Source: Nanobdellota archaeon | GTDB lineage: Archaea; Nanobdellota; Nanobdellia; Pacearchaeales; GW2011-AR1 | DNA: 64,000 bases | NCBI GenBank assembly: GCA_038044925.1 | Contig: JBBSZC010000004.1 | Coordinates: 11,166 to 75,165, forward strand | Direction of reading: 5' to 3' | Shown here: piece after piece, positions 7,207 through 41,818 of the stretch | How the letters are laid out: each line of letters begins with the position of its first letter | Position numbering within the stretch: position 1 is the stretch's first letter | Position numbers and translations under genes: made by a program | The notes under the pieces: generated by a model | Seen by the model: the letters and a program-made list of their open reading frames with translations, nothing else | Told to the model about the DNA's origin: nothing | Database searches by the model: none

Positions 7207-8304
7207 TTACTCCAAAAATTCAATCCCTAACTCTTCTTCAATCTCTTTGTGCCTTCTATCCTCAAGACTATCTCCTTGTCCGACGATCTGAGAGCTCTTT
7301 ACGCCTGTGACAATCAATAAAACCCTGATAGATTTTTCCATATCTTCTGAAATCTGCGCACCCCAAATCATTTTTGCATCAGGAGATAATTTATTTCCAA
7401 CTGTTTCAATTATTGATTTGCATTCATCTAAGCTCATATCAGATCCTCCAATTATATTTATTAGAGCGCCTGTTGCATCTGAAATATCCACATCCAGCAA
7501 AGGATTTTGAATTGCCTTTTCAACAGCTTCTGTTGCCCTATTTTGAGAATCTGATTCTCCCATGCCTATTAAAGAAACTCCTCCATCTATCATTATTGCT
7601 TTTATGTCTGCAAAATCCAGATTTACAAGACCTGATTTTGTTACCAATTCTGTTGTACCTTTTACGGCATTTGTTAGAATTTCGTCTGCAATTTTAAATG
7701 CAGTATGTAACGGCAGTTCAGGAGCTAATTCCAGCAGTTTATCATTAGGAATTACTATTAATGTATCAACACTATCCTGCATTCTCTCTAAACCATTCAT
7801 TGCATTTTCGATTCTTTTTCTTCCTTCTATTGAAAATGGAAGCGTAACAATTCCAATTACTAGAGCTCCTTGTTTTTTTGCTATTTCAGCGATTATTGGA
7901 GCAGCGCCTGTTCCTGTTCCCCCCCCTAATCCGCAGGTAATAAATATCATGTCGCTTCCTAAAAGTTTTTTCTTTATTTCTGACTCTGATTCTTTTGCTG
8001 CTTCTGCCCCTATCTTTGGATTGCTTCCTGCTCCTAAACCCTGAGTTAATTCTCTTCCAATTAAAATTTTTTGGTCTGCATTAGCGTATAATAGATCCTG
8101 GGCATCTGTGTTCACTGCTATAAGTTCCCCTCCTTTAATCCCTATTTCCCTCATTCTGGAAAGAGAATTATTCCCTCCGCCTCCAACACCTATAACTTTT
8201 ATTTTTGCGTTTTGTTTTTTTAGTAATTCTTCTAATTCCTTATCTATTTCACTGACATTTGAAGAAATATCTATTCTGTGTTCATCCCTTTGTACAACTG
8301 CCAT
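7207..8304 (-). CDS. ftsZ: cell division GTPase FtsZ
   Basis: IGVGGGGNN, tubulin signature GGGTGTGAAPIIAEIAK. Confidence 0.9.
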   Translation of the reverse strand: MAVVQRDEHRIDISSNVSEIDKELEELLKKQNAKIKVIGVGGGGNNSLSRMREIGIKGGELIAVNTDAQDLLYANADQKILIGRELTQGLGAGSNPKIGAEAAKESESEIKKKLLGSDMIFITCGLGGGTGTGAAPIIAEIAKKQGALVIGIVTLPFSIEGRKRIENAMNGLERMQDSVDTLIVIPNDKLLELAPELPLHTAFKIADEILTNAVKGTTELVTKSGLVNLDFADIKAIMIDGGVSLIGMGESDSQNRATEAVEKAIQNPLLDVDISDATGALINIIGGSDMSLDECKSIIETVGNKLSPDAKMIWGAQISEDMEKSIRVLLIVTGVKSSQIVGQGDSLEDRRHKEIEEELGIEFLE

Positions 8305-27946: not shown

Positions 27947-28082
27947 CGCCCCCACGAGGATTTGAACCTCGGTCTCAACCTTCTTACTTTATCTCCTTGA
28001 AATCTAGGAGAGGTAGTGTCAGGAGAACCTTGGTTCTCCCACATCCGCAAGGTCGTGTTCTATCCAACTGAACTATAGGGGC
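27947..28082 (-). tRNA. tRNA-Arg (anticodon GCG) with an intron of about 63 nt
   Basis: Reverse complement: acceptor GCCCCTA/TGGGGGC, D arm GTTC-AGTTGGATA-GAAC, anticodon stem CGACC/GGTTG, loop TTGCGG plus spliced-in A, T arm CGAGGTTCAAATCCTCG, discriminator G. Confidence 0.6.
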
Positions 28083-35655: not shown

Positions 35656-36378
35656 ATGAATTTTATAAAAAAGGTATTTGACAAGAAAGTTGATGAAATT
35701 GTACATATACAATTTAAAAAATTTAGCAGGGGGAAATTTATAGACAAGGCTGTTATAAAAGCAAAAAGAGATGGCAAAGGAAACTTTACTATAATTACGA
35801 CTTATGAGTTTGCTAATGATCTCGTTAGAGATGTTGCAGAAAAATTAGGAAATATTAAAACTAATGTTAAAGGGGTTCTTGTTTCCACAAATGATTTGAC
35901 AGGAGAGCTGGATTTTAATAGCAAGAAGCAATTCATAGGGGTTAAGCAATATAGAATAGATAAAGAAATGACTGGAAATGAAATAATTGGCATTTTAAAC
36001 AAATTTCCAAAAGCTTTTTTTGCCTTGAGTTTTAATGTTGATTCTGGAGGAAATTCAACTGAATTAAAAATAAAAGAAAAGGCTCCAAAGTCTGCTAAAC
36101 CCAGCAATAAGACAGATGAGAAACCTAATCCTGATTTTTGTAAACTTAAAACATCGGATAAAGAACTTGCAGAGAGTTTTGTTTTTGAAAAAATGGATTT
36201 TAAATTAGCAGAGATAAGCCATGATTTTATAATTAAAGAGATAGTAATTCCTGAAGAGCTGAAAAAAGAGAATGACTTTGCAAAGATAAGAGAGTTTTCA
36301 AGAAGAAGGGGGGTTGTGATAAGGAAAGCGATTATTGATGGCAGGGAAATAAGAAGAGAGATTGATTTTGAGGTGTGA
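35656..36378 (+). CDS. hypothetical protein
   Basis: 240-aa ORF convergent with the RT gene. Confidence 0.3.
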   Translation: MNFIKKVFDKKVDEIVHIQFKKFSRGKFIDKAVIKAKRDGKGNFTIITTYEFANDLVRDVAEKLGNIKTNVKGVLVSTNDLTGELDFNSKKQFIGVKQYRIDKEMTGNEIIGILNKFPKAFFALSFNVDSGGNSTELKIKEKAPKSAKPSNKTDEKPNPDFCKLKTSDKELAESFVFEKMDFKLAEISHDFIIKEIVIPEELKKENDFAKIREFSRRRGVVIRKAIIDGREIRREIDFEV

Positions 36379-36403: not shown

Positions 36404-37455
36404 TTAAAGGGAGCTAGGGATGGGTGCATAAATAGCTTTTACAACATTCCTCCTTAACTTAAAGCTATTAGCCCACTTTGCATAGGCGTTCCAACCATTA
36501 AAACTTTCTAATAGTTTTTCCTTACTTAATTCTCCGCTTTTGTGTTGTCTTATTCTGAATATTATATTTCTTAAATTTTTCTTTCTTAACAAGTTATAGT
36601 GATAGAATTTTCTAAACCCTACAAAATCAATTCCTCTTGATAGAGGAATTATTTTAGATTTCTGAGAATGTAGTTCTAGCTTTAATTTTTCTTTCAATAA
36701 TCTGTTTATTTGCTCTTTCCACACTTCTAGTTGTTCCTTAGAATTATGAAGAATAACAAAATCATCTACATATCTAATATAATATCTAGCCCGTAACTTA
36801 TTCTTAACAAACCAATCCAATTCGTGAAGATAAACGTTGGCGAAGAATTGGGAGGTTAGATTGCCGAGAGGCATTCCTTTCTCGCAAAAACTCGTTCGCC
36901 CCCCCCCCCGAACGAGTTCGGGCTGTTATTAAGAATCTGACCAATCAACCAAATAACTTTTTTATCTTTAATCTTTCTGCTTAAAATTTCTATTAAAATC
37001 TTGTAATTAACTTCTTTAAAATAATGCTTTATGTCTGCTTTCAAACAAAAGGAAATTCTGCTATTGTTTTTAGTAACTTTTCTCTGAAATAATTCAAATC
37101 TTTTAAGTGCAAATAAATTCCCCTTTCCTACTCTGTTCGCACAAGAATCATAAATAAAAGATTTGTCAAAAAGTGGCTCAATTATTCTAACAACTGCATG
37201 ATGAACTATTCTATCGGGAAAGGCAGACTTTGAAATTTTGCGGGTTTTTGGGTCTCTTAACACAAAGTTCTTTAGAGGTTCTGGCTTATATGTCTGATTT
37301 TTTAGCTTATCTGACAAGCTGATTAGATTTTTAAATAAATTAGCTTCAAATTCAATAACATAGTTCTTTTTAGTCTTGCCTTTTCTTGCTTTTCTCCAAG
37401 CAAGAATTAAGTTAGACAAATTATAAATCTGCTCATATAAGTTATTAGTTTCCAT
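36404..37455 (-). CDS. DGR-type reverse transcriptase, split into two ORFs (37455-36856 and 36874-36404) by a frameshift inside a G11 homopolymer
   Basis: N-terminal LILAWRKARKGK; motif 3 ADIKHYFKEV; motif 4 KGMPLGNLTSQFFANVYLHELD; motif 5 YVDDFVI; adding one G (12 instead of 11) gives continuous ...NSFGGGGRTSFCEKGMPLGN... Confidence 0.8.
36891..36917. repeat. C11 (G11 on the coding strand) homopolymer flanked by a 10-bp inverted repeat, AACTCGTTCG-C(n)-CGAACGAGTT, inside the RT gene
   Basis: 11 consecutive C at 36899-36909 in a roughly 29% GC genome; flanking arms perfectly complementary. Confidence 0.85.
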
Positions 37456-37484: not shown

Positions 37485-37576
37485 TATTCCAGACGCATAA
37501 CCATACTCGACATCAGCATGGTAGTTGCCATTGACATTCAACCTGTCACCATTCCAGTTCGAATTCACCGCGGATA
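37485..37576 (-). other. DGR template repeat (TR)
   Basis: About 89-nt repeat of the VR; at all 13 mismatches TR has A on the coding strand; TR codons AAT/AAC dominate. Confidence 0.85.
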
Positions 37577-37746
37577 GTTATGTAGCCAGTTTACCTTCCT
37601 ATCACTGAAATTCCTCGTAAGGAAAATCTGTATTTTATGACTTAAAATAAAATCAAATATGTCTTGATAAATTGGCATGTAGCCCTAGCTTATCGCTAAG
37701 ACAAAAATTAACTAAAATAAGAATTAATAAACCTTTACTTATTTTT

Positions 37747-38442
37747 TTACGAAGCGCCTTCGGCGCTTTTTGGCAATACCCCAGACGCAAAACCATACCC
37801 GACATCAGCATGGTAGTAGCCATGGACATACAACCTGACACCAAGCCAGTCCGAATCCACCGCGGTATATTTTTTCAAATCTCTATTTTGAGAGTCTAAA
37901 GCACCAACATAAGGTGCTTTTCTGCTTATTTTTTCAGCAACTCTTGCTACAACATCTTCAGCGAAATCTTTATCTGTAACTTGTCCAATTATATAAGAAT
38001 TTGCAACTAAATCTGAAACTGACTGGTTTCCTGTCTTAAATCCATATTTAACTAATCTTACTGCCTTATCTCCATCTTTCATTCTTTTTATTAAACTTGC
38101 CCTATCTGTTGGCATAGTTCCATCAATATTATCATAAAGAATAACATCTTCTTTTCCCCATAAATTCTCAGTAGTCGTCAATAGCCATTGGTTTTTTACT
38201 CTGGAAACTATATCCTTGCATTGTTTATTATCTGGATTGCTTAATGCAAAATCTATTAAAGAAAATGTCTGGGCAGTTGTAGGTCTTAGTAATTTTCCTT
38301 TTGTAATTGCACCCATAACTTTTTGGTGAGTTCCTGGTCCTTCAAGAGGATAAGCACTTGTTAAAATCCCATTTCCGTGCTTATAATCCATTTCGGTTCT
38401 AGCTATTCTTATTCTTCCACCATTTAGTTCTTTAGTTATCAT
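37747..38442 (-). CDS. DGR target (variable) protein with C-terminal VR; N-terminal domain of unknown family
   Basis: 231-aa ORF; the last roughly 40 aa are encoded by the VR; no obvious signal peptide. Confidence 0.75.
   Translation of the reverse strand: MITKELNGGRIRIARTEMDYKHGNGILTSAYPLEGPGTHQKVMGAITKGKLLRPTTAQTFSLIDFALSNPDNKQCKDIVSRVKNQWLLTTTENLWGKEDVILYDNIDGTMPTDRASLIKRMKDGDKAVRLVKYGFKTGNQSVSDLVANSYIIGQVTDKDFAEDVVARVAEKISRKAPYVGALDSQNRDLKKYTAVDSDWLGVRLYVHGYYHADVGYGFASGVLPKSAEGAS
37750..37773 (-). promoter_or_regulatory. GC-rich stem-loop (7-bp stem AAGCGCC/GGCGCTT, 4-nt loop) 8 nt downstream of the VR
   Basis: Perfect GC-rich hairpin in an AT-rich context, at the position of the homing-enhancing hairpin of characterised DGRs. 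Confidence 0.5.
37777..37868 (-). other. DGR variable repeat (VR) encoding the C-terminus of the target protein
   Basis: See TR; VR reads ...TAVDSDWLGVRLYVHGYYHADVGYGFASGV versus TR SAVNSNWNGDRLNVNGNYHADVEYGYASGI. Confidence 0.85.
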
Positions 38443-39733: not shown

Positions 39734-40551
39734 ATGAAAAAATAAATGTTTTAGATATTCAAGGAAAGAAAATAAAAGAAATTGAGATGCCTGAATTTTT
39801 CAAGCAGAAAATAAGAGAAGATATAATCTCTAAAATAATAGAATCAAGAAAATCAAAACAGCCTTATGCTCCTTCACCTGTTGCAGGAAAACAGCACTCT
39901 GCTTCAGGACTAATAAGACACAGAAGACATGTCTGGAAAACTCATTATGGGCAGGGAAGGTCAAGAATTCCAAGAAAAATAATTTCTAAGAAAGGAAACA
40001 GAATAAACTGGATTGGGGCTGAAATTCCATCTACTAGGGGAGGTAGAAGAGCGCATCCTCCTAGAGTTGAAGGAACCATTAATGCTAATAAAATAAACAG
40101 AAAAGAATTGAGAATCGCCTTGCTGTCTGCTTTAAGTGCAAGTGCAAACCCAAAAGAAATAAAAAAGAAATATGAAAATTTAAGAGAAAAAAATATTAAT
40201 GCTCCGTTTGTTGTGGACGGAAAAATAACAGAATTGAAAACAAAGGAAGTTGTAGAAACCTTAGGAAAGGTTTTGGGGGAGGCTTTTGGTGCTGCTATTT
40301 CAAAAAAATCAATAAGAGCTGGAAAAGGAAAGCGAAGAGGGAGAAAATACAAAGAAACAGCAGGAGCCTTAATTGTTTTAGGAAACAGCGAAAAAATAAA
40401 AACAAATATTATTGAAAGCAAGAATGTTTCAAACCTTAATGTTATTGATTTATCTAATGGTGGACAAGGAAAATTAACAATTTATACTGAAAATGCAATT
40501 AAAGATTTAAATGAAAGGCTTAATAAAACTAAGGAGGAAAAAGAAAAATGA
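39730..40551 (+). CDS. rpl4: ribosomal protein L4 (uL4)
   Basis: Family similarity and position. Confidence 0.85.
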   Translation: MNEKINVLDIQGKKIKEIEMPEFFKQKIREDIISKIIESRKSKQPYAPSPVAGKQHSASGLIRHRRHVWKTHYGQGRSRIPRKIISKKGNRINWIGAEIPSTRGGRRAHPPRVEGTINANKINRKELRIALLSALSASANPKEIKKKYENLREKNINAPFVVDGKITELKTKEVVETLGKVLGEAFGAAISKKSIRAGKGKRRGRKYKETAGALIVLGNSEKIKTNIIESKNVSNLNVIDLSNGGQGKLTIYTENAIKDLNERLNKTKEEKEK

Positions 40552-41225
40552 TATCTTTAGATATAGAAACAAGTGGAATTGATATGTCTTGTTGTGGAAT
40601 TTGGCAGATTGGTGCACTAGAAATAGAAAATCCAGAAAATGTCTTTTTGCAGGAAGCACGAATTGATGCTTTAGATATTATTGAACCAGAAGCTCTAGTT
40701 GTTACAGAAAAAACCGAAGAAGAATTAAGAAGTAGGGGAAAACAATCTCAAAGAGGATTAATACAAAGTTTTCTAGAGTGGAGGGGGTTTTGTGAAGTAA
40801 AGACCGCATTATGCCACAATCCGCAATTTGATATTGGATTTATAACTCTTAAATCTTTAAAATATTTTAAAAAAGATCCATTTTGGCCAATCTATCATAG
40901 AGCATTTGATTTGCATACTCTCGCACAACAAAGATATTTTCAAGAAAATGGAAGATTTTTAATTGATGGGGATCATAGCGATATGGGTTTATCTAAAATA
41001 TTAAAATTTGTGGGAATAGAAGATAAAAGAAGAGCAATTAAAGATGGAAAAGTAGAAAGAGAAGGCAACCCCCATAACGCATTAGAAGATGCAAAATTAA
41101 CTGCAGAATGCTTTTCAAGATTAATTTATGGAAAAACCATTTTTCCAGAATATACTAAATTTAAAGTTCCAGAATATCTATTAAATCCAAGAATAAAGAA
41201 TAAAAATGAAACCAATTATTACTGA
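40548..41225 (+). CDS. DEDDh 3'-5' exonuclease (DnaQ/RNase T-like) embedded between L4 and L23
   Basis: Exo I LDIETSG, Exo II HNPQFDIGFI, Exo III HNALEDA; overlaps both neighbours. Confidence 0.75.
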   Translation: MISLDIETSGIDMSCCGIWQIGALEIENPENVFLQEARIDALDIIEPEALVVTEKTEEELRSRGKQSQRGLIQSFLEWRGFCEVKTALCHNPQFDIGFITLKSLKYFKKDPFWPIYHRAFDLHTLAQQRYFQENGRFLIDGDHSDMGLSKILKFVGIEDKRRAIKDGKVEREGNPHNALEDAKLTAECFSRLIYGKTIFPEYTKFKVPEYLLNPRIKNKNETNYY

Positions 41226-41443: not shown

Positions 41444-41818
41444 ATGGCAGAGAAAAATACTGAAATAATCCGAGCAATTAATAATCTAAATAGTAACGAA
41501 GCCTTAAAAATTGGTATCTGTAGAGAGTCTCATGGGACAGATGAGGGACCTTTATTTCATGCTTATATGGAAATAGAAGGGAAGGAAGTTTATTTAACTG
41601 CCCATTGCTGTGAATTAAGCTTTGCAGTAGATTTATCAGATAAATTAAATAAAATAGGCGTAGAAAGAGTGATTCTCTCTCCTCTTAATATTAAAAAACA
41701 TCAAAAAAATTATTCCGTCTCTAAAAGTGATTTAGATTTGTTGAGAGGATTATTATCAAGGAATGGGATTCAAACCGAGATAGATTTAGAACATTTAACT
41801 TTAAATAAATTTTATTAA
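41444..41818 (+). CDS. hypothetical protein inserted between L23 and L2
   Basis: 124-aa ORF; no ribosomal protein family recognised. Confidence 0.35.
   Translation: MAEKNTEIIRAINNLNSNEALKIGICRESHGTDEGPLFHAYMEIEGKEVYLTAHCCELSFAVDLSDKLNKIGVERVILSPLNIKKHQKNYSVSKSDLDLLRGLLSRNGIQTEIDLEHLTLNKFY

What the first reader, a model, noticed from the sequence alone, without database searches (positions are those of the whole stretch)
37485..37868. TR/VR pair differs at 13 positions, all of them adenines of the TR coding strand
On the plus strand every mismatch is T in copy 37485-37576 and A/C/G in copy 37777-37868 (T>C,C,A,C,A,G,A,A,A,G,C,C and so on). On the coding (minus) strand the TR therefore has A wherever the VR varies. 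Translation gives TR ...NSNWNGDRLNVNGNY.. versus VR ...DSDWLGVRLYVHGYY... This matches the AAY-codon design of DGR templates and argues against an ordinary duplication.
Basis: seen in the sequence. Interest (0 to 1): 0.8.

Follow-up and report, generated by a model that had tools for sequence, protein, structure and literature searches.

The report
Archaeal DGR with frameshifted reverse transcriptase
The repeat pair is a genuine diversity-generating retroelement of a tiny groundwater (DPANN) archaeon that rewrites the tip of a lectin-like binding protein; it is an ordinary member of a known family, except that its reverse transcriptase gene is broken at a run of eleven G's, a kind of break that recurs in its relatives.

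Summary
Largely confirmed. An ungapped repeat, 37485-37573 (TR) against 37777-37865 (VR), has 12 mismatches, all at TR adenines on the minus strand (P=5.7e-9). Ten differences look mutagenic. The two at 37487-37488 (AA>GG) are fixed across the clade and resemble an IMH/IMH* difference.

The cassette is a canonical accessory-free DGR on the minus strand:
- a C-terminal VR, then a GC hairpin with a GAA loop;
- a TATA-like box, the Rfam RT-16 RNA, the TR, and a DGR-type RT (LGNLTSQ, YVDD).

About 60 of 80 related DPANN loci show an adenine-biased TR/VR pair, mostly in this order.

The RT is split by a -1 frameshift in a G11 tract. The tract is identical in three assemblies, and the VR is identical in five. 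One variant also carries K29stop. Split RTs starting at MPLGNLTSQ are common among relatives (about 105 of the 120 best hits). G/C and (AG)n tracts are concentrated in these RT genes (P=6e-6).

Verdict: a new member of a known kind, probably switched off at present. Whether the tract is a reversible switch is open.

The parts
37747..38442 (-). Target (variable-protein) gene. It encodes 231 aa with no Pfam or NCBIfam hit. The predicted fold is an AvpA-like C-type-lectin fold.
37777..37865 (-). Variable repeat (VR). It encodes residues about 193-222 of the target protein.
   Evidence: It has 10 mutagenic-type differences from the TR plus 2 clade-fixed differences at its 3' end (VR 37779-37780).
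37752..37768 (-). GC-rich hairpin or cruciform just 3' of the VR: AAGCGCC-GAA-GGCGCTT. It lies inside the coding sequence and encodes the conserved peptide SAEGA.
   Evidence: Sequence. Hairpin scan: a GC stem, most often with a GAA loop, follows 55 of 79 VRs in relatives but only 3 of 79 TRs. The conserved SAEGA peptide is seen in alignment A2.
37724..37731 (-). TATA-like box (TTTATTAA) centred about 27 nt upstream of the 5' end of the RT-16 RNA. It is the inferred promoter of the DGR RNA.
   Evidence: By my reading of the printed upstream sequences, a TTTAWAWA-like element sits at a similar distance in most of the 17 relatives. No score or count was computed. The genome is AT-rich, so this is only suggestive.
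37577..37701 (-). Structured RNA of Rfam family RF03019 (RT-16), ending 3 nt before the 5' end of the TR.
   Evidence: 62.7 bits against a gathering score of 50, full model length 1-158. The same family was found directly 5' of the TR in 17 of 17 related loci tested (55-113 bits).
37485..37573 (-). Template repeat (TR). It is non-coding, with 23 adenines and six AAY codons in the VR frame.
   Evidence: There are 16 A-containing codons and none can mutate to a stop. The repertoire is about 2.8e12 protein variants.
37485..37488 (-). 3' end of the TR (minus-strand AATA against VR GGTA at 37777-37780). This is a clade-fixed TR/VR difference, analogous to IMH*/IMH.
   Evidence: AATA/GGTA or AATG/GGTG is found at the repeat end in 25 related pairs, and the same gaat>gggt change lies inside the alignments of many more. 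V222 and G217 are conserved in the target family.
36404..37455 (-). DGR reverse transcriptase gene, split into ORF1 (36856-37455, 199 aa) and ORF2 (36404-36874, 156 aa, starting MPLGNLTSQ) by a -1 frameshift.
   Evidence: With one G added, the 350-aa product matches RVT_1 over positions 8-203 of 205 (72 bits). It aligns over 98% of its length with intact archaeal RTs of 64-74% identity. It also aligns with the solved RT 8ub7.
36899..36909 (-). G11 homopolymer (C11 on the plus strand) in the Gly-rich loop just before motif 4. This is the site of the frameshift.
   Evidence: identical G11 in L001/L004, L002 and L003. It is the longest G/C run in the 64-kb window; the next is C8. G12 or G9 restores the frame.
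36889..36918 (-). Palindrome around the tract: AACTCGTTC(G)...(C)GAACGAGTT, a 9-10 bp stem with the G run as its loop.
   Evidence: The same arms occur in relatives L091 (loop TGGGGG, 3' arm read in another frame) and L092 (8-bp stem). Some homologues have poly-Pro (C-tract) loops instead.

Best explanation
This is a diversity-generating retroelement (DGR) in the chromosome of a DPANN archaeon (Nanoarchaeota/Woesearchaeota-like) from Hainich groundwater.

The cassette lies on the minus strand, in this order:
- a 231-aa AvpA-like C-type-lectin-fold gene carrying the VR at its C-terminus;
- a GC hairpin;
- a TATA-like promoter;
- the structured RT-16 RNA;
- the TR;
- the reverse transcriptase.

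There is no Avd or other accessory gene. This corresponds to architecture A1 of Wu et al. 2018.

Inferred mechanism, by homology with the Bordetella phage DGR:
1. An RNA starting at RT-16 and running through the TR is bound by the RT.
2. The RT reverse-transcribes it, misincorporating opposite adenines.
3. The cDNA replaces the VR up to a fixed 3' boundary. That boundary is marked by the GGGGTA (VR) versus GGAATA (TR) difference and the downstream hairpin.

This can rewrite 16 codons, giving up to about 3e12 protein variants and never a stop codon.

Shown here: the anatomy, the adenine-only differences, the RT family, the target fold, and conservation of the layout in relatives.

Inferred only: transcription start, priming, retrohoming, and any present activity.

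In every available assembly the RT reading frame is interrupted by a -1 frameshift inside a G11 tract. The element therefore diversified its VR in the past but is most likely switched off in the sampled population.
For: - Repeat and statistics: (12 of 12 mismatches at TR adenines, P=5.7e-9; 6 of 6 AAY codons changed).
- No stop codon is reachable, and the repertoire is 2.8e12 variants.
- RT: LGNLTSQ and YVDD motifs, RVT_1 at 72 bits once repaired, 64-74% identity to more than 7000 archaeal RTs, best solved relative the 328-aa RT 8ub7 at E=1.8e-38.
- RT-16 RNA: and 17 of 17 relatives.
- Hairpin after the VR but not after the TR.
- Fixed 3' difference between TR and VR.
- Adenine-biased TR/VR pairs in about 60 of 80 related DPANN loci, most in the same layout.
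- No conserved accessory gene.
- Archaeal host: archaeal-type L3/L4 operon next door and an intron-sized tRNA hit; record titles of relatives; source records.
- Frameshift.
- No intact near-identical RT exists among 5.8e9 proteins (best hit 74%), while both fragments are on record.
Against: - No direct evidence of current activity. The VR is identical in five assemblies. The RT ORF is broken. One variant contig (L002) carries an extra nonsense mutation, K29stop.
- The hairpin loop is 3 nt (GAA), not the 4-nt GRNA of phage DGRs (against PMC3240598).
- No Avd. The priming RNA elements known from the Bordetella element lie downstream of its TR. Here only 29 nt separate the TR from the RT start codon, so the RNA mechanics may differ.
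- The G11 length could be a sequencing or assembly error. In that case the RT would be intact and the 'switched off' part of the statement would be wrong.
Confidence: 0.9

Rival explanations
1. Phase-variable DGR. The G11 tract, and the equivalent G/C or (AG)n tracts in relatives, is a hypermutable simple-sequence repeat. Slipped-strand mispairing toggles the RT between in-frame (G9/G12, ON) and out-of-frame (G11, OFF) states. Populations could then freeze a useful VR and later resume diversification.
For: - G11 is the only long G/C run in 64 kb of 30% GC DNA.
- About 105 of the 120 best matches to ORF2 are separate ORFs starting at MPLGNLTSQ or a one-residue variant of it; about 10 more start just upstream inside the loop. 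Roughly 37 of the 120 lie on contigs of 10 kb or more.
- Four further split lineages were fetched. In three of them (L296, L297, L294/L295) the only lesion lies at a long tract in this loop (G11, G11, (AG)11/12). Both RT halves are otherwise intact in all four. A TR/VR pair was detected in three: adenine-only in L296 (12/12) and L297 (19/20), 16 of 19-20 at A in L294/L295.
- Two assemblies of one organism differ by one AG unit, (AG)11 against (AG)12.
- In 80 species-level loci, 11 of 18 such tracts lie inside the RT gene, which is 14% of the DNA (P=5.8e-6). Three more lie within 60 nt of its start.
- Among homologues, the sequence after the tract is read in all three frames, which implies repeated indels followed by compensation.
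Against: - No length polymorphism is seen in the window's own population: G11 in all three assemblies.
- Both alleles in the (AG)n case are out of frame.
- All three G-tract cases are exactly G11, and all five split lineages are in the -1 state in at least one assembly (L295 is +1). Free switching would not obviously produce this.
- The extra K29stop in L002 and a non-A VR mutation in L294 look like decay.
- The search with ORF2 is biased towards fragments, so the frequency of split RTs is unknown.
- No paper in the searched library links DGR RTs with phase variation. That search was narrow, and absence of a hit is neither support nor refutation.
Confidence: 0.27
2. Plain pseudogene. The DGR is dead or dying. 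A slippage-prone tract in a tolerant loop is simply where the first inactivating mutation tends to land, with no adaptive or reversible role.
For: - The frameshift is fixed in all assemblies.
- A second lesion, K29stop, is present in variant L002.
- The VR is identical in five assemblies.
- The VR of relative L294 carries an ordinary C>T change at a non-A position, which suggests no recent homing.
- Most of the 80 best relatives have single-frame RTs (79 of 80).
Against: - Apart from the tract, both RT halves are full length with every catalytic motif.
- TR and VR show no non-A mismatch.
- The RT-16 RNA and the hairpin are intact.
- Tracts are strongly enriched in RT genes across the clade, including in-frame ones in intact RTs. 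Neutral decay does not predict this.
Confidence: 0.33
3. Sequencing or assembly artefact. The true tract is G12 (or G9). Slippage in library PCR, or a k-mer path choice, dropped one G. The RT would then be intact and the DGR active.
For: - Long G runs flanked by a 10-bp palindrome are hard to sequence. The related contig L088 ends just before the expected tract position. L087 turns into a fold-back chimera straight after a G14 run.
- All three independent G-tract cases read G11 and L087 reads G14, each one short of a multiple of three. A systematic -1 error would produce this.
- Coverage of the small contigs is only about 4-6x (record names).
Against: - The same G11 appears in three assemblies from different replicate read sets, and one of them is a distinguishable strain with 2 SNPs.
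- Split RTs also occur at (AG)n and (AG)5(CG)3 sequences, where homopolymer error does not apply.
- Several intact homologues encode runs of four or five glycines in this loop. These may be G11-G15 tracts assembled in frame, but their DNA was not read.
Confidence: 0.15
4. Recoding. The full-length RT is made from the G11 allele by programmed -1 ribosomal frameshifting on G GGG GGG, or by transcriptional slippage that adds a G. This would keep RT levels low, as in many retroelements.
For: - The ORF1/ORF2 overlap has the right geometry. The -1 frame is open from 7 codons before the tract, and the ORF1 stop lies 14 codons after it.
- G GGG GGG fits the X XXY YYZ slippery pattern.
- All five split lineages examined are in the -1 configuration in at least one assembly.
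Against: - The (AG)n and (AG)5(CG)3 cases have no slippery heptamer, and one of them (L295) is in the +1 state.
- 79 of the 80 best relatives encode the RT in a single frame.
- The tract sits in the loop of the palindrome, not upstream of a stimulatory structure.
- There is no experimental precedent that I know of for poly-G frameshifting in archaea (my own knowledge).
Confidence: 0.07
5. Ordinary tandem-like duplication of a gene end followed by drift or gene conversion, unrelated to reverse transcription.
For: None beyond the existence of two similar copies 292 nt apart.
Against: - All mismatches fall on one base of one strand of one copy (P about 6e-9).
- 7 of the 12 are transversions.
- An RT, a DGR-associated RNA motif and an AvpA-like target flank the copies.
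- Adenine-biased TR/VR pairs recur in about 60 related loci.
Confidence: 0.01

Closest known systems
Nanoarchaeota / DPANN DGRs with AvpA-type variable proteins (Paul et al. 2015; Handa et al. 2016, PMC5006420; Paul et al. 2017 as cited in PMC6349945)
   Same: - Archaeal host.
- A single-domain variable protein of about 230-256 aa with a CLec fold and a short VR (about 27-30 residues).
- The hairpin lies within the coding sequence after the VR.
- AAY-rich TR and a groundwater origin.
- One related locus, L079, comes from Nanoarchaeota SCGC AAA011-G17.
   Different: - No detectable sequence similarity to AvpA (phmmer E>10; 14% identity in the structural alignment).
- The VR is closer to the C-terminus: 9 residues follow it here, against 46 in AvpA.
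- The RT is frameshifted here.
Bordetella phage BPP-1 DGR (mtd-avd-TR-brt)
   Same: - Adenine-specific TR to VR information transfer.
- The VR lies at the 3' end of a CLec-fold gene.
- The RT has an (I/L)GxxxSQ motif.
- A GC-rich hairpin follows the VR (PMC3240598).
- TR and VR carry a 3'-end difference that sets directionality (IMH/IMH*).
- The RT aligns over its full length with the solved 328-aa RT 8ub7. I believe this is bRT, but I could not verify that from the entry name.
   Different: - No avd gene.
- The conserved structured RNA (RT-16) lies 5' of the TR, not in a 140-nt spacer 3' of it (bioRxiv 10.1101/2023.10.23.563531).
- The hairpin loop is GAA (3 nt), not GRNA (4 nt).
- The VR is 85-89 nt, against 134 nt.
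- The element is chromosomal in an archaeon, not in a phage.
Accessory-free DGR architecture A1 (Wu et al. 2018, PMC5758913); that paper separately notes an RT lineage (Lineage 3) lacking avd
   Same: The core is TR-RT with the target gene upstream and no avd, HRDC, MSL or CH1 gene. That paper reports this architecture for 29% of its catalogued DGRs.
   Different: That survey rests on GenBank data from 2017. I did not place this RT in its tree. In the passages I read, the paper does not mention the RT-16 RNA or tracts inside RT genes.
Rfam RF03019, the RT-16 motif (Weinberg et al. 2017, PMC5737381)
   Same: The spacer 37577-37701 scores above the family's gathering threshold over the whole model.
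   Different: The paper only says that the RT-1 to RT-19 motifs lie near RT genes and may act in retrons or DGRs. It ties only RT-10 to a DGR. Here RT-16 abuts the 5' end of the TR in 18 of 18 loci. The window's copy has shortened hairpins and a low score (62.7 bits, against 55-113 in relatives).
Poly-G/C contingency loci (phase-variable genes) of Campylobacter, Neisseria and Haemophilus (e.g. PMC8355987, PMC5084427)
   Same: An intragenic G/C homopolymer of 9-14 nt in an AT-rich genome, whose length decides the reading frame. Tracts are concentrated in one gene class.
   Different: Switching is not demonstrated here. The tract is in mid-gene rather than near the 5' end. The host is an archaeon, and the gene is a mutagenic RT rather than a surface or restriction-modification gene.

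Membership tests
Diversity-generating retroelement (DGR) | A near-identical TR/VR pair whose differences are confined to adenines of the TR | tested here: met
   10 of 10 (85-nt core) or 12 of 12 (89 nt) at TR adenines; P=5.9e-8 and 5.7e-9.
Diversity-generating retroelement (DGR) | An adjacent reverse transcriptase of the DGR type (motif 4 [ILV]GxxxSQ, YxDD catalytic box) | tested here: met
   LGNLTSQ and YVDD are present. RVT_1 at 72 bits. Best solved relative 8ub7 at E=1.8e-38, with IGSLTSQ aligned. The group II intron RT model scores only 154 bits, below its cut-off of 300.
Diversity-generating retroelement (DGR) | The RT gene is an intact open reading frame, as a functional element requires | tested here: not met
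   A -1 frameshift in a G11 tract splits it into 199-aa and 156-aa ORFs. The tract is the same in three assemblies. This bears on present activity, not on what the element is.
Diversity-generating retroelement (DGR) | The VR lies at the 3' end of a protein-coding target gene and the TR is non-coding | tested here: met
   The VR encodes residues about 193-222 of a 231-aa ORF. The TR lies between the RT-16 RNA and the RT and overlaps only a spurious 53-aa ORF.
Diversity-generating retroelement (DGR) | TR adenines are placed so that mutagenesis diversifies codons without creating stops (AAY design) | tested here: met
   Six AAY codons. None of the 16 A-containing codons can reach a stop. 2.8e12 protein variants.
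Diversity-generating retroelement (DGR) | Target-site elements: an IMH-like 3' end that differs from the TR, followed by a GC-rich hairpin or cruciform 4-34 bp downstream of the VR | tested here: met
   VR GGGGTA against TR GGAATA, fixed across relatives. A 7-bp stem, AAGCGCC-GAA-GGCGCTT, begins 8 nt after the 89-nt VR (12 nt after the 85-nt core) and is absent after the TR. A GC hairpin follows 55 of 79 VRs in relatives against 3 of 79 TRs; 28 of the 55 have a GAA loop. The loop is 3 nt, not the 4-nt GRNA of phage DGRs (PMC3240598).
Diversity-generating retroelement (DGR) | An accessory protein (Avd, HRDC, MSL or CH1). This is common but not universal. | tested here: not met
   Only the RT is shared among the 81 loci compared. 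The neighbouring 240-aa ORF has no family hit. I ran no Avd-specific profile search over the whole window. Absence is compatible with architecture A1 (PMC5758913).
Diversity-generating retroelement (DGR) | Observed VR heterogeneity at A positions within a population (ongoing activity) | tested here: inconclusive
   Five assemblies give an identical VR. These are consensus sequences, and reads were not available.
AvpA-like CLec-fold DGR variable proteins | A C-type-lectin fold of the AvpA subclass | tested here: met
AvpA-like CLec-fold DGR variable proteins | Detectable sequence homology to AvpA | tested here: not met
   phmmer against all PDB sequences found no hit at E<=10. Identity in the structural alignments is 12-14%. 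The protein is a structural relative and forms a separate sequence family of at least 38 members.
Rfam RF03019 (RT-16 RNA) | A covariance-model score at or above the curated gathering score | tested here: met
   62.7 bits against 50, model positions 1-158 of 158, E=2.8e-7 for the whole window.
Phase-variable (contingency) locus | A simple-sequence repeat inside the ORF whose length sets the frame | tested here: met
   A G11 tract at 36899-36909. G12 or G9 restores the frame.
Phase-variable (contingency) locus | Tract-length polymorphism among otherwise near-identical genomes | tested here: inconclusive
   Not seen for the window's own tract: G11 in three assemblies. Seen in one relative, (AG)11 against (AG)12 with 6 SNPs in 6.4 kb.
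Phase-variable (contingency) locus | Reversible, high-frequency ON/OFF switching | not testable with these tools
   This needs read-level or culture data.

The most novel reading that the evidence does not exclude
In this large clade of DPANN DGRs, the reverse transcriptase gene itself may carry hypermutable simple-sequence tracts. These are G or C runs of 9-14 nt and (AG)n, located in three surface loops and just upstream of the start codon. The tracts would act as a reversible ON/OFF switch for targeted hypermutation. The window's G11 allele would be the OFF state. A cell could then lock in a useful variant of its binding protein and later re-open diversification.
Probability: 0.27. Interest if true: 0.7.

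Novelty: new member of a known kind. Interest (0 to 1): 0.4.

Why it matters
As a DGR, this adds nothing new in kind. DGRs with AvpA-like targets are already known to be abundant in DPANN archaea, and this MAG is already public.

Its value is as a clean, fully dissected example of the accessory-free archaeal architecture. Two useful details come out of the comparison:
- The Rfam RT-16 RNA is the structured 5' flank of the TR in every locus tested.
- The last two 'adenine' differences are a fixed, IMH-like marker of directionality, not mutagenesis.

The part that could matter more is the state of the RT. Simple-sequence tracts are concentrated in these RT genes, and they frequently break them at one loop. 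If that is reversible, it would be a regulatory layer not previously described for DGRs: a mutator that can be switched on and off by slippage. It would also change how 'inactive' DGRs are counted in metagenomic surveys. If it is a sequencing artefact, surveys are undercounting intact archaeal DGR RTs for a technical reason. Either way, the question can be tested directly with the existing reads.

Tried and rejected
1. Positions 37574-37576 are three straight mismatches including non-A sites, so the repeat ends at 37573.
2. A second VR elsewhere in the 64-kb window. None found; the next best TR match is 31 nt at E=0.1.
3. An Avd or other accessory gene. ORF clustering over 81 loci found only the RT to be shared. 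The 240-aa neighbour has no Pfam or NCBIfam hit.
4. Sequence-level membership of the target in a known family. No hit in Pfam, NCBIfam or PDB sequence searches. Only the fold search worked.
5. A scan of metagenome contigs with the palindrome pattern AACTCGTTCN{1,25}GAACGAGTT, meant to collect tract-length variants. The 120 stretches returned were unrelated chance palindromes and none encoded an RT.
6. A scan of viral contigs with the ORF2 alignment. It returned only distant relatives (55% identity or less), which I did not analyse further.
7. DNA for the closest intact RT (P0001) was not retrievable because the sample file is too large.
8. A conserved programmed frameshift. Rejected as a general explanation: 79 of the 80 best relatives are single-frame, and the (AG)n cases lack a slippery site.
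9. VR differences between the two assemblies L294 and L295 as evidence of ongoing homing. The differing sites are not TR adenines, so they are ordinary SNPs.
10. Supplementary description of RT-16 in Weinberg et al. 2017. It is not held in the library.
11. Confirming that PDB entry 8ub7 is bRT. No paper in the library cites that code.
Full report
**Observation.** Window positions 37489-37573 and 37781-37865 form an ungapped 85-nt direct repeat 292 nt apart. It can be extended by four bases to 37485 and 37777.
- A per-position count gives 10 mismatches in the core and 12 in the 89-nt version. Every one is a plus-strand T in the first copy, which is an A on the minus (coding) strand.
Those bases are three consecutive mismatches, and two of them fall on a minus-strand T. 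The repeat therefore ends at 37573, and the count is 12, not 13.
- The 89-nt copy has 23 adenines. The chance that all 12 mismatches fall on A is 5.7e-9; for the core it is 5.9e-8.
All six AAY codons are altered. Eleven changes are non-synonymous and one is silent. The spectrum is 5 A>G, 5 A>T and 2 A>C.

**Anatomy.** All parts lie on the minus strand.
- The variable copy is the C-terminal end of a 231-aa ORF (37747-38442).
- The template copy is non-coding and ends 29 nt before a reverse-transcriptase gene.
- Rfam places its RT-16 family (RF03019) on the spacer at 37577-37701. The match covers the full model at 62.7 bits against a threshold of 50 and ends 3 nt before the template.
- A TATA-like TTTATTAA sits about 27 nt upstream of that RNA's 5' end. 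By eye, a similar box lies at a similar distance in most of the 17 relatives examined. In an AT-rich genome this is only suggestive.
- Just after the variable copy, still inside the gene, is a GC-rich hairpin, AAGCGCC-GAA-GGCGCTT (37752-37768). It encodes the peptide SAEGA.
- The neighbours are an archaeal-type ribosomal protein operon (L3, L4, L23, L2 and onward) on one side and an AI-2E transporter on the other.
- The window corresponds to a 122-kb contig of MAG GCA_964363295.1 from Hainich groundwater, well H43.

**The reverse transcriptase.** The gene is in two pieces: a 199-aa ORF (36856-37455) and a 156-aa ORF (36404-36874) that starts MPLGNLTSQ.
- The break lies in a run of eleven G's (plus-strand C11, 36899-36909). 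The run is flanked by the inverted repeat AACTCGTTC/GAACGAGTT.
- Adding one G, or removing two, gives a 350-aa protein. That protein covers the whole RVT_1 profile.
- It aligns over 98% of its length with thousands of intact 335-390-aa RTs from Pacearchaeota, Woesearchaeota and Nanoarchaeota at 64-74% identity.
- Its best solved relative is a 328-aa RT (8ub7, E=1.8e-38) with the same (I/L)GxLTSQ motif.
- The tract lies in a length-variable, glycine-rich loop just before motif 4. That loop is an insertion relative to 8ub7.

**The target protein.** It has no Pfam, NCBIfam or PDB sequence match.
- Its 38 homologues share a conserved scaffold of about 190 aa. This is followed by a hypervariable stretch with fixed S, W, R, L, G and GYASGV positions, as expected if each homologue is diversified by its own DGR.
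- An AlphaFold model built on that alignment is confident (pLDDT 91.9, pTM 0.91).
- Next come the Thermus DGR variable protein TaqVP and then many C-type lectins.
- AvpA was described as a CLec-fold protein of about 256 aa with a short 27-residue VR and the hairpin inside the coding sequence (PMC5006420). The same features are seen here.

**Relatives.** Eighty species-level genome loci encoding related RTs were fetched. Nearly all are DPANN archaea.
- About 60 show a TR/VR pair with at least 80% of mismatches on one base (A, or T on the opposite strand). Most have the order VR, 300-600 nt, TR, 30-50 nt, RT. Some have the pair downstream of the RT or carry two or three VRs.
- RT-16 was found directly 5' of the TR in all 17 loci tested.
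- A GC hairpin follows 55 of 79 VRs but only 3 of 79 TRs, and 28 of the 55 have a GAA loop.
- No accessory gene is shared. This corresponds to the accessory-free architecture A1 of Wu et al. (PMC5758913).
- At the 3' end of the repeat, most relatives have AAT(A/G) in the TR against GGT(A/G) in the VR. The window's two differences at 37487-37488 are therefore a clade-fixed distinction, analogous to IMH*/IMH, and not the result of random misincorporation.
- None of the 16 A-containing TR codons can mutate to a stop. The theoretical repertoire is about 2.8e12 proteins.

**Mechanism.** By homology with the Bordetella phage element (PMC3240598; bioRxiv 10.1101/2023.10.23.563531), the following steps are likely.
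1. An RNA beginning at RT-16 and containing the TR is bound by the RT.
2. It is copied into cDNA with misincorporation opposite adenines.
3. The cDNA replaces the VR up to a boundary defined by the GGGGTA element and the hairpin.

The anatomy, the RT family, the target fold and the conservation are shown here. Transcription, priming and homing are inferred. The differences from the phage paradigm are the absence of Avd, a structured RNA 5' rather than 3' of the TR, and a 3-nt hairpin loop.

**Is it active?**
- The G11 tract is identical in three assemblies made from different replicate read sets. One of those is a distinguishable strain with two SNPs.
- That strain also carries K29stop in the RT.
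- The VR is identical in five assemblies.
- No intact near-identical RT exists in a 5.8-billion-protein collection (best hit 74%).

The simplest reading is that the element diversified its VR in the past and is now off in this population. A homopolymer miscall cannot be excluded without reads. A related contig ends just before the expected tract position, and another becomes a fold-back chimera after a G14 run.

**An unexpected pattern.** Searching with the 156-aa C-terminal ORF returned 1855 proteins at E<=1e-20.
- Of the best 120, which are distinct clusters at 67-77% identity, about 105 are ORFs of 148-170 aa starting at MPLGNLTSQ or a one-residue variant of it. About 10 more start just upstream inside the loop. 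Roughly 37 of the 120 lie on contigs of 10 kb or more. The search appears biased towards proteins of similar length, so no frequency can be derived from it.
- Four further split lineages were fetched. Two have G11 again (L296, L297). One has (AG)11 in one assembly and (AG)12 in another (L294, L295). One has (AG)5(CG)3 (L299).
- Both RT halves are otherwise intact in all four. A TR/VR pair was detected in three: L296 12 of 12 at A, L297 19 of 20, and L294/L295 16 of 19-20. None was detected in L299.
- In the 80 species-level loci, 11 of 18 G/C runs of 8 nt or more, or AG/CT repeats of five units or more, lie inside the RT gene, which is 14% of the DNA (binomial P=5.8e-6). Three more lie within 60 nt of its start.
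- Among intact homologues the loop encodes poly-Gly or poly-Pro. The segment after the tract is read in all three frames in different lineages.

These facts fit a hypermutable tract that repeatedly breaks the RT and perhaps restores it. They do not prove reversibility. The uniform G11 and -1 state, the second lesion in L002 and an ordinary VR mutation in L294 all caution against that reading. I found no paper linking DGR RTs with phase variation, but that search was narrow.

**Verdict.** This is a new member of a known kind: the archaeal, accessory-free, AvpA-type DGR. Its interest is moderate. It rests mainly on the recurrent, tract-associated splitting of the RT, which existing reads could resolve.

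Noticed in passing
window 36856-36924 (minus strand); also L296:2975-2985, L297:2963-2973, L294:2955-2976, L295:2953-2976, L299:2973-2982: The RT gene is split at a simple-sequence tract in the loop before motif 4. The tracts are G11 in the window, L296 and L297, (AG)11/(AG)12 in L294/L295, and (AG)5(CG)3 in L299. About 105 of the 120 best matches to the C-terminal ORF are separate ORFs starting at MPLGNLTSQ or a one-residue variant of it.
   Followed up: partly
L007-L086 (80 related loci, 571 kb): G/C runs of 8 nt or more and AG/CT repeats of five units or more are concentrated in the RT genes. 11 of 18 lie inside the RT, at about aa 134, 175-194, 240-245 and 341. Three more lie within 60 nt 5' of the RT start. 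Binomial P=5.8e-6.
   Followed up: partly
window 36889-36918; L091 and L092 RT loops: A 9-10-bp palindrome (AACTCGTTC(G)/(C)GAACGAGTT) brackets the G tract. The arms are kept in two relatives with other loops. In L091 the 3' arm is read in a different frame (ANEF instead of RTSF). Some homologues have poly-Pro (C-tract) loops, as if the hairpin loop had been inverted.
   Followed up: partly
window 37485-37488 against 37777-37780: TR AATA against VR GGTA at the 3' end of the repeat is the same in most related loci (AAT(A/G) against GGT(A/G)). It is a fixed, IMH-like TR/VR difference and not a product of adenine mutagenesis.
   Followed up: yes
window 37724-37731: A TATA-like box lies about 27 nt upstream of the RT-16 RNA 5' end. 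By eye, a similar box lies at a similar distance in most of the 17 relatives. This suggests the DGR RNA starts at RT-16.
   Followed up: partly
L002 (ERZ1292632 contig), equivalent to window 37371 and 36875: A strain variant differs from the window by only two SNPs in 2.5 kb, and both are in the RT. One makes K29stop (AAA>TAA). The other is synonymous in the true RT frame.
   Followed up: yes
L087:2733-2790 and the end of L088: In a related Hainich H51 population (target protein 81% identical), one contig ends just before the expected RT tract position. The other continues past a G14 run into the reverse complement of a different RT variant. That is a fold-back assembly chimera. An IS240-family transposase gene lies directly upstream of the target gene there.
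   Followed up: partly
L294 against L295, positions 1878, 1983, 2009: Three of the six SNPs between two assemblies of one organism lie in or beside the VR, but not at TR adenines. L294 therefore carries an ordinary C>T mutation in its VR.
   Followed up: yes
window 27947-28082 (minus strand): Rfam reports a tRNA match spanning 136 nt (49.8 bits). This is presumably an intron-containing archaeal tRNA. ARAGORN did not call it.
   Followed up: no
window 40548-41225 and 41444-41818: Two extra ORFs sit inside the ribosomal-protein operon. A 225-aa ORF with a weak RNase_T hit lies between L4 and L23. A 124-aa ORF without any family lies between L23 and L2.
   Followed up: no
window 35656-36378 (plus strand): A 240-aa ORF converges on the RT gene. 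It has no Pfam or NCBIfam hit and was not found next to the RT in any of the 80 related genome loci.
   Followed up: partly
window 7919-7926: The second-longest G/C homopolymer of the window (C8). Its coding context was not examined.
   Followed up: no
L037:4546-4556: A G11 run at the RT loop position is followed directly by a masked run of N in the genome collection, so the frame state cannot be read there.
   Followed up: no
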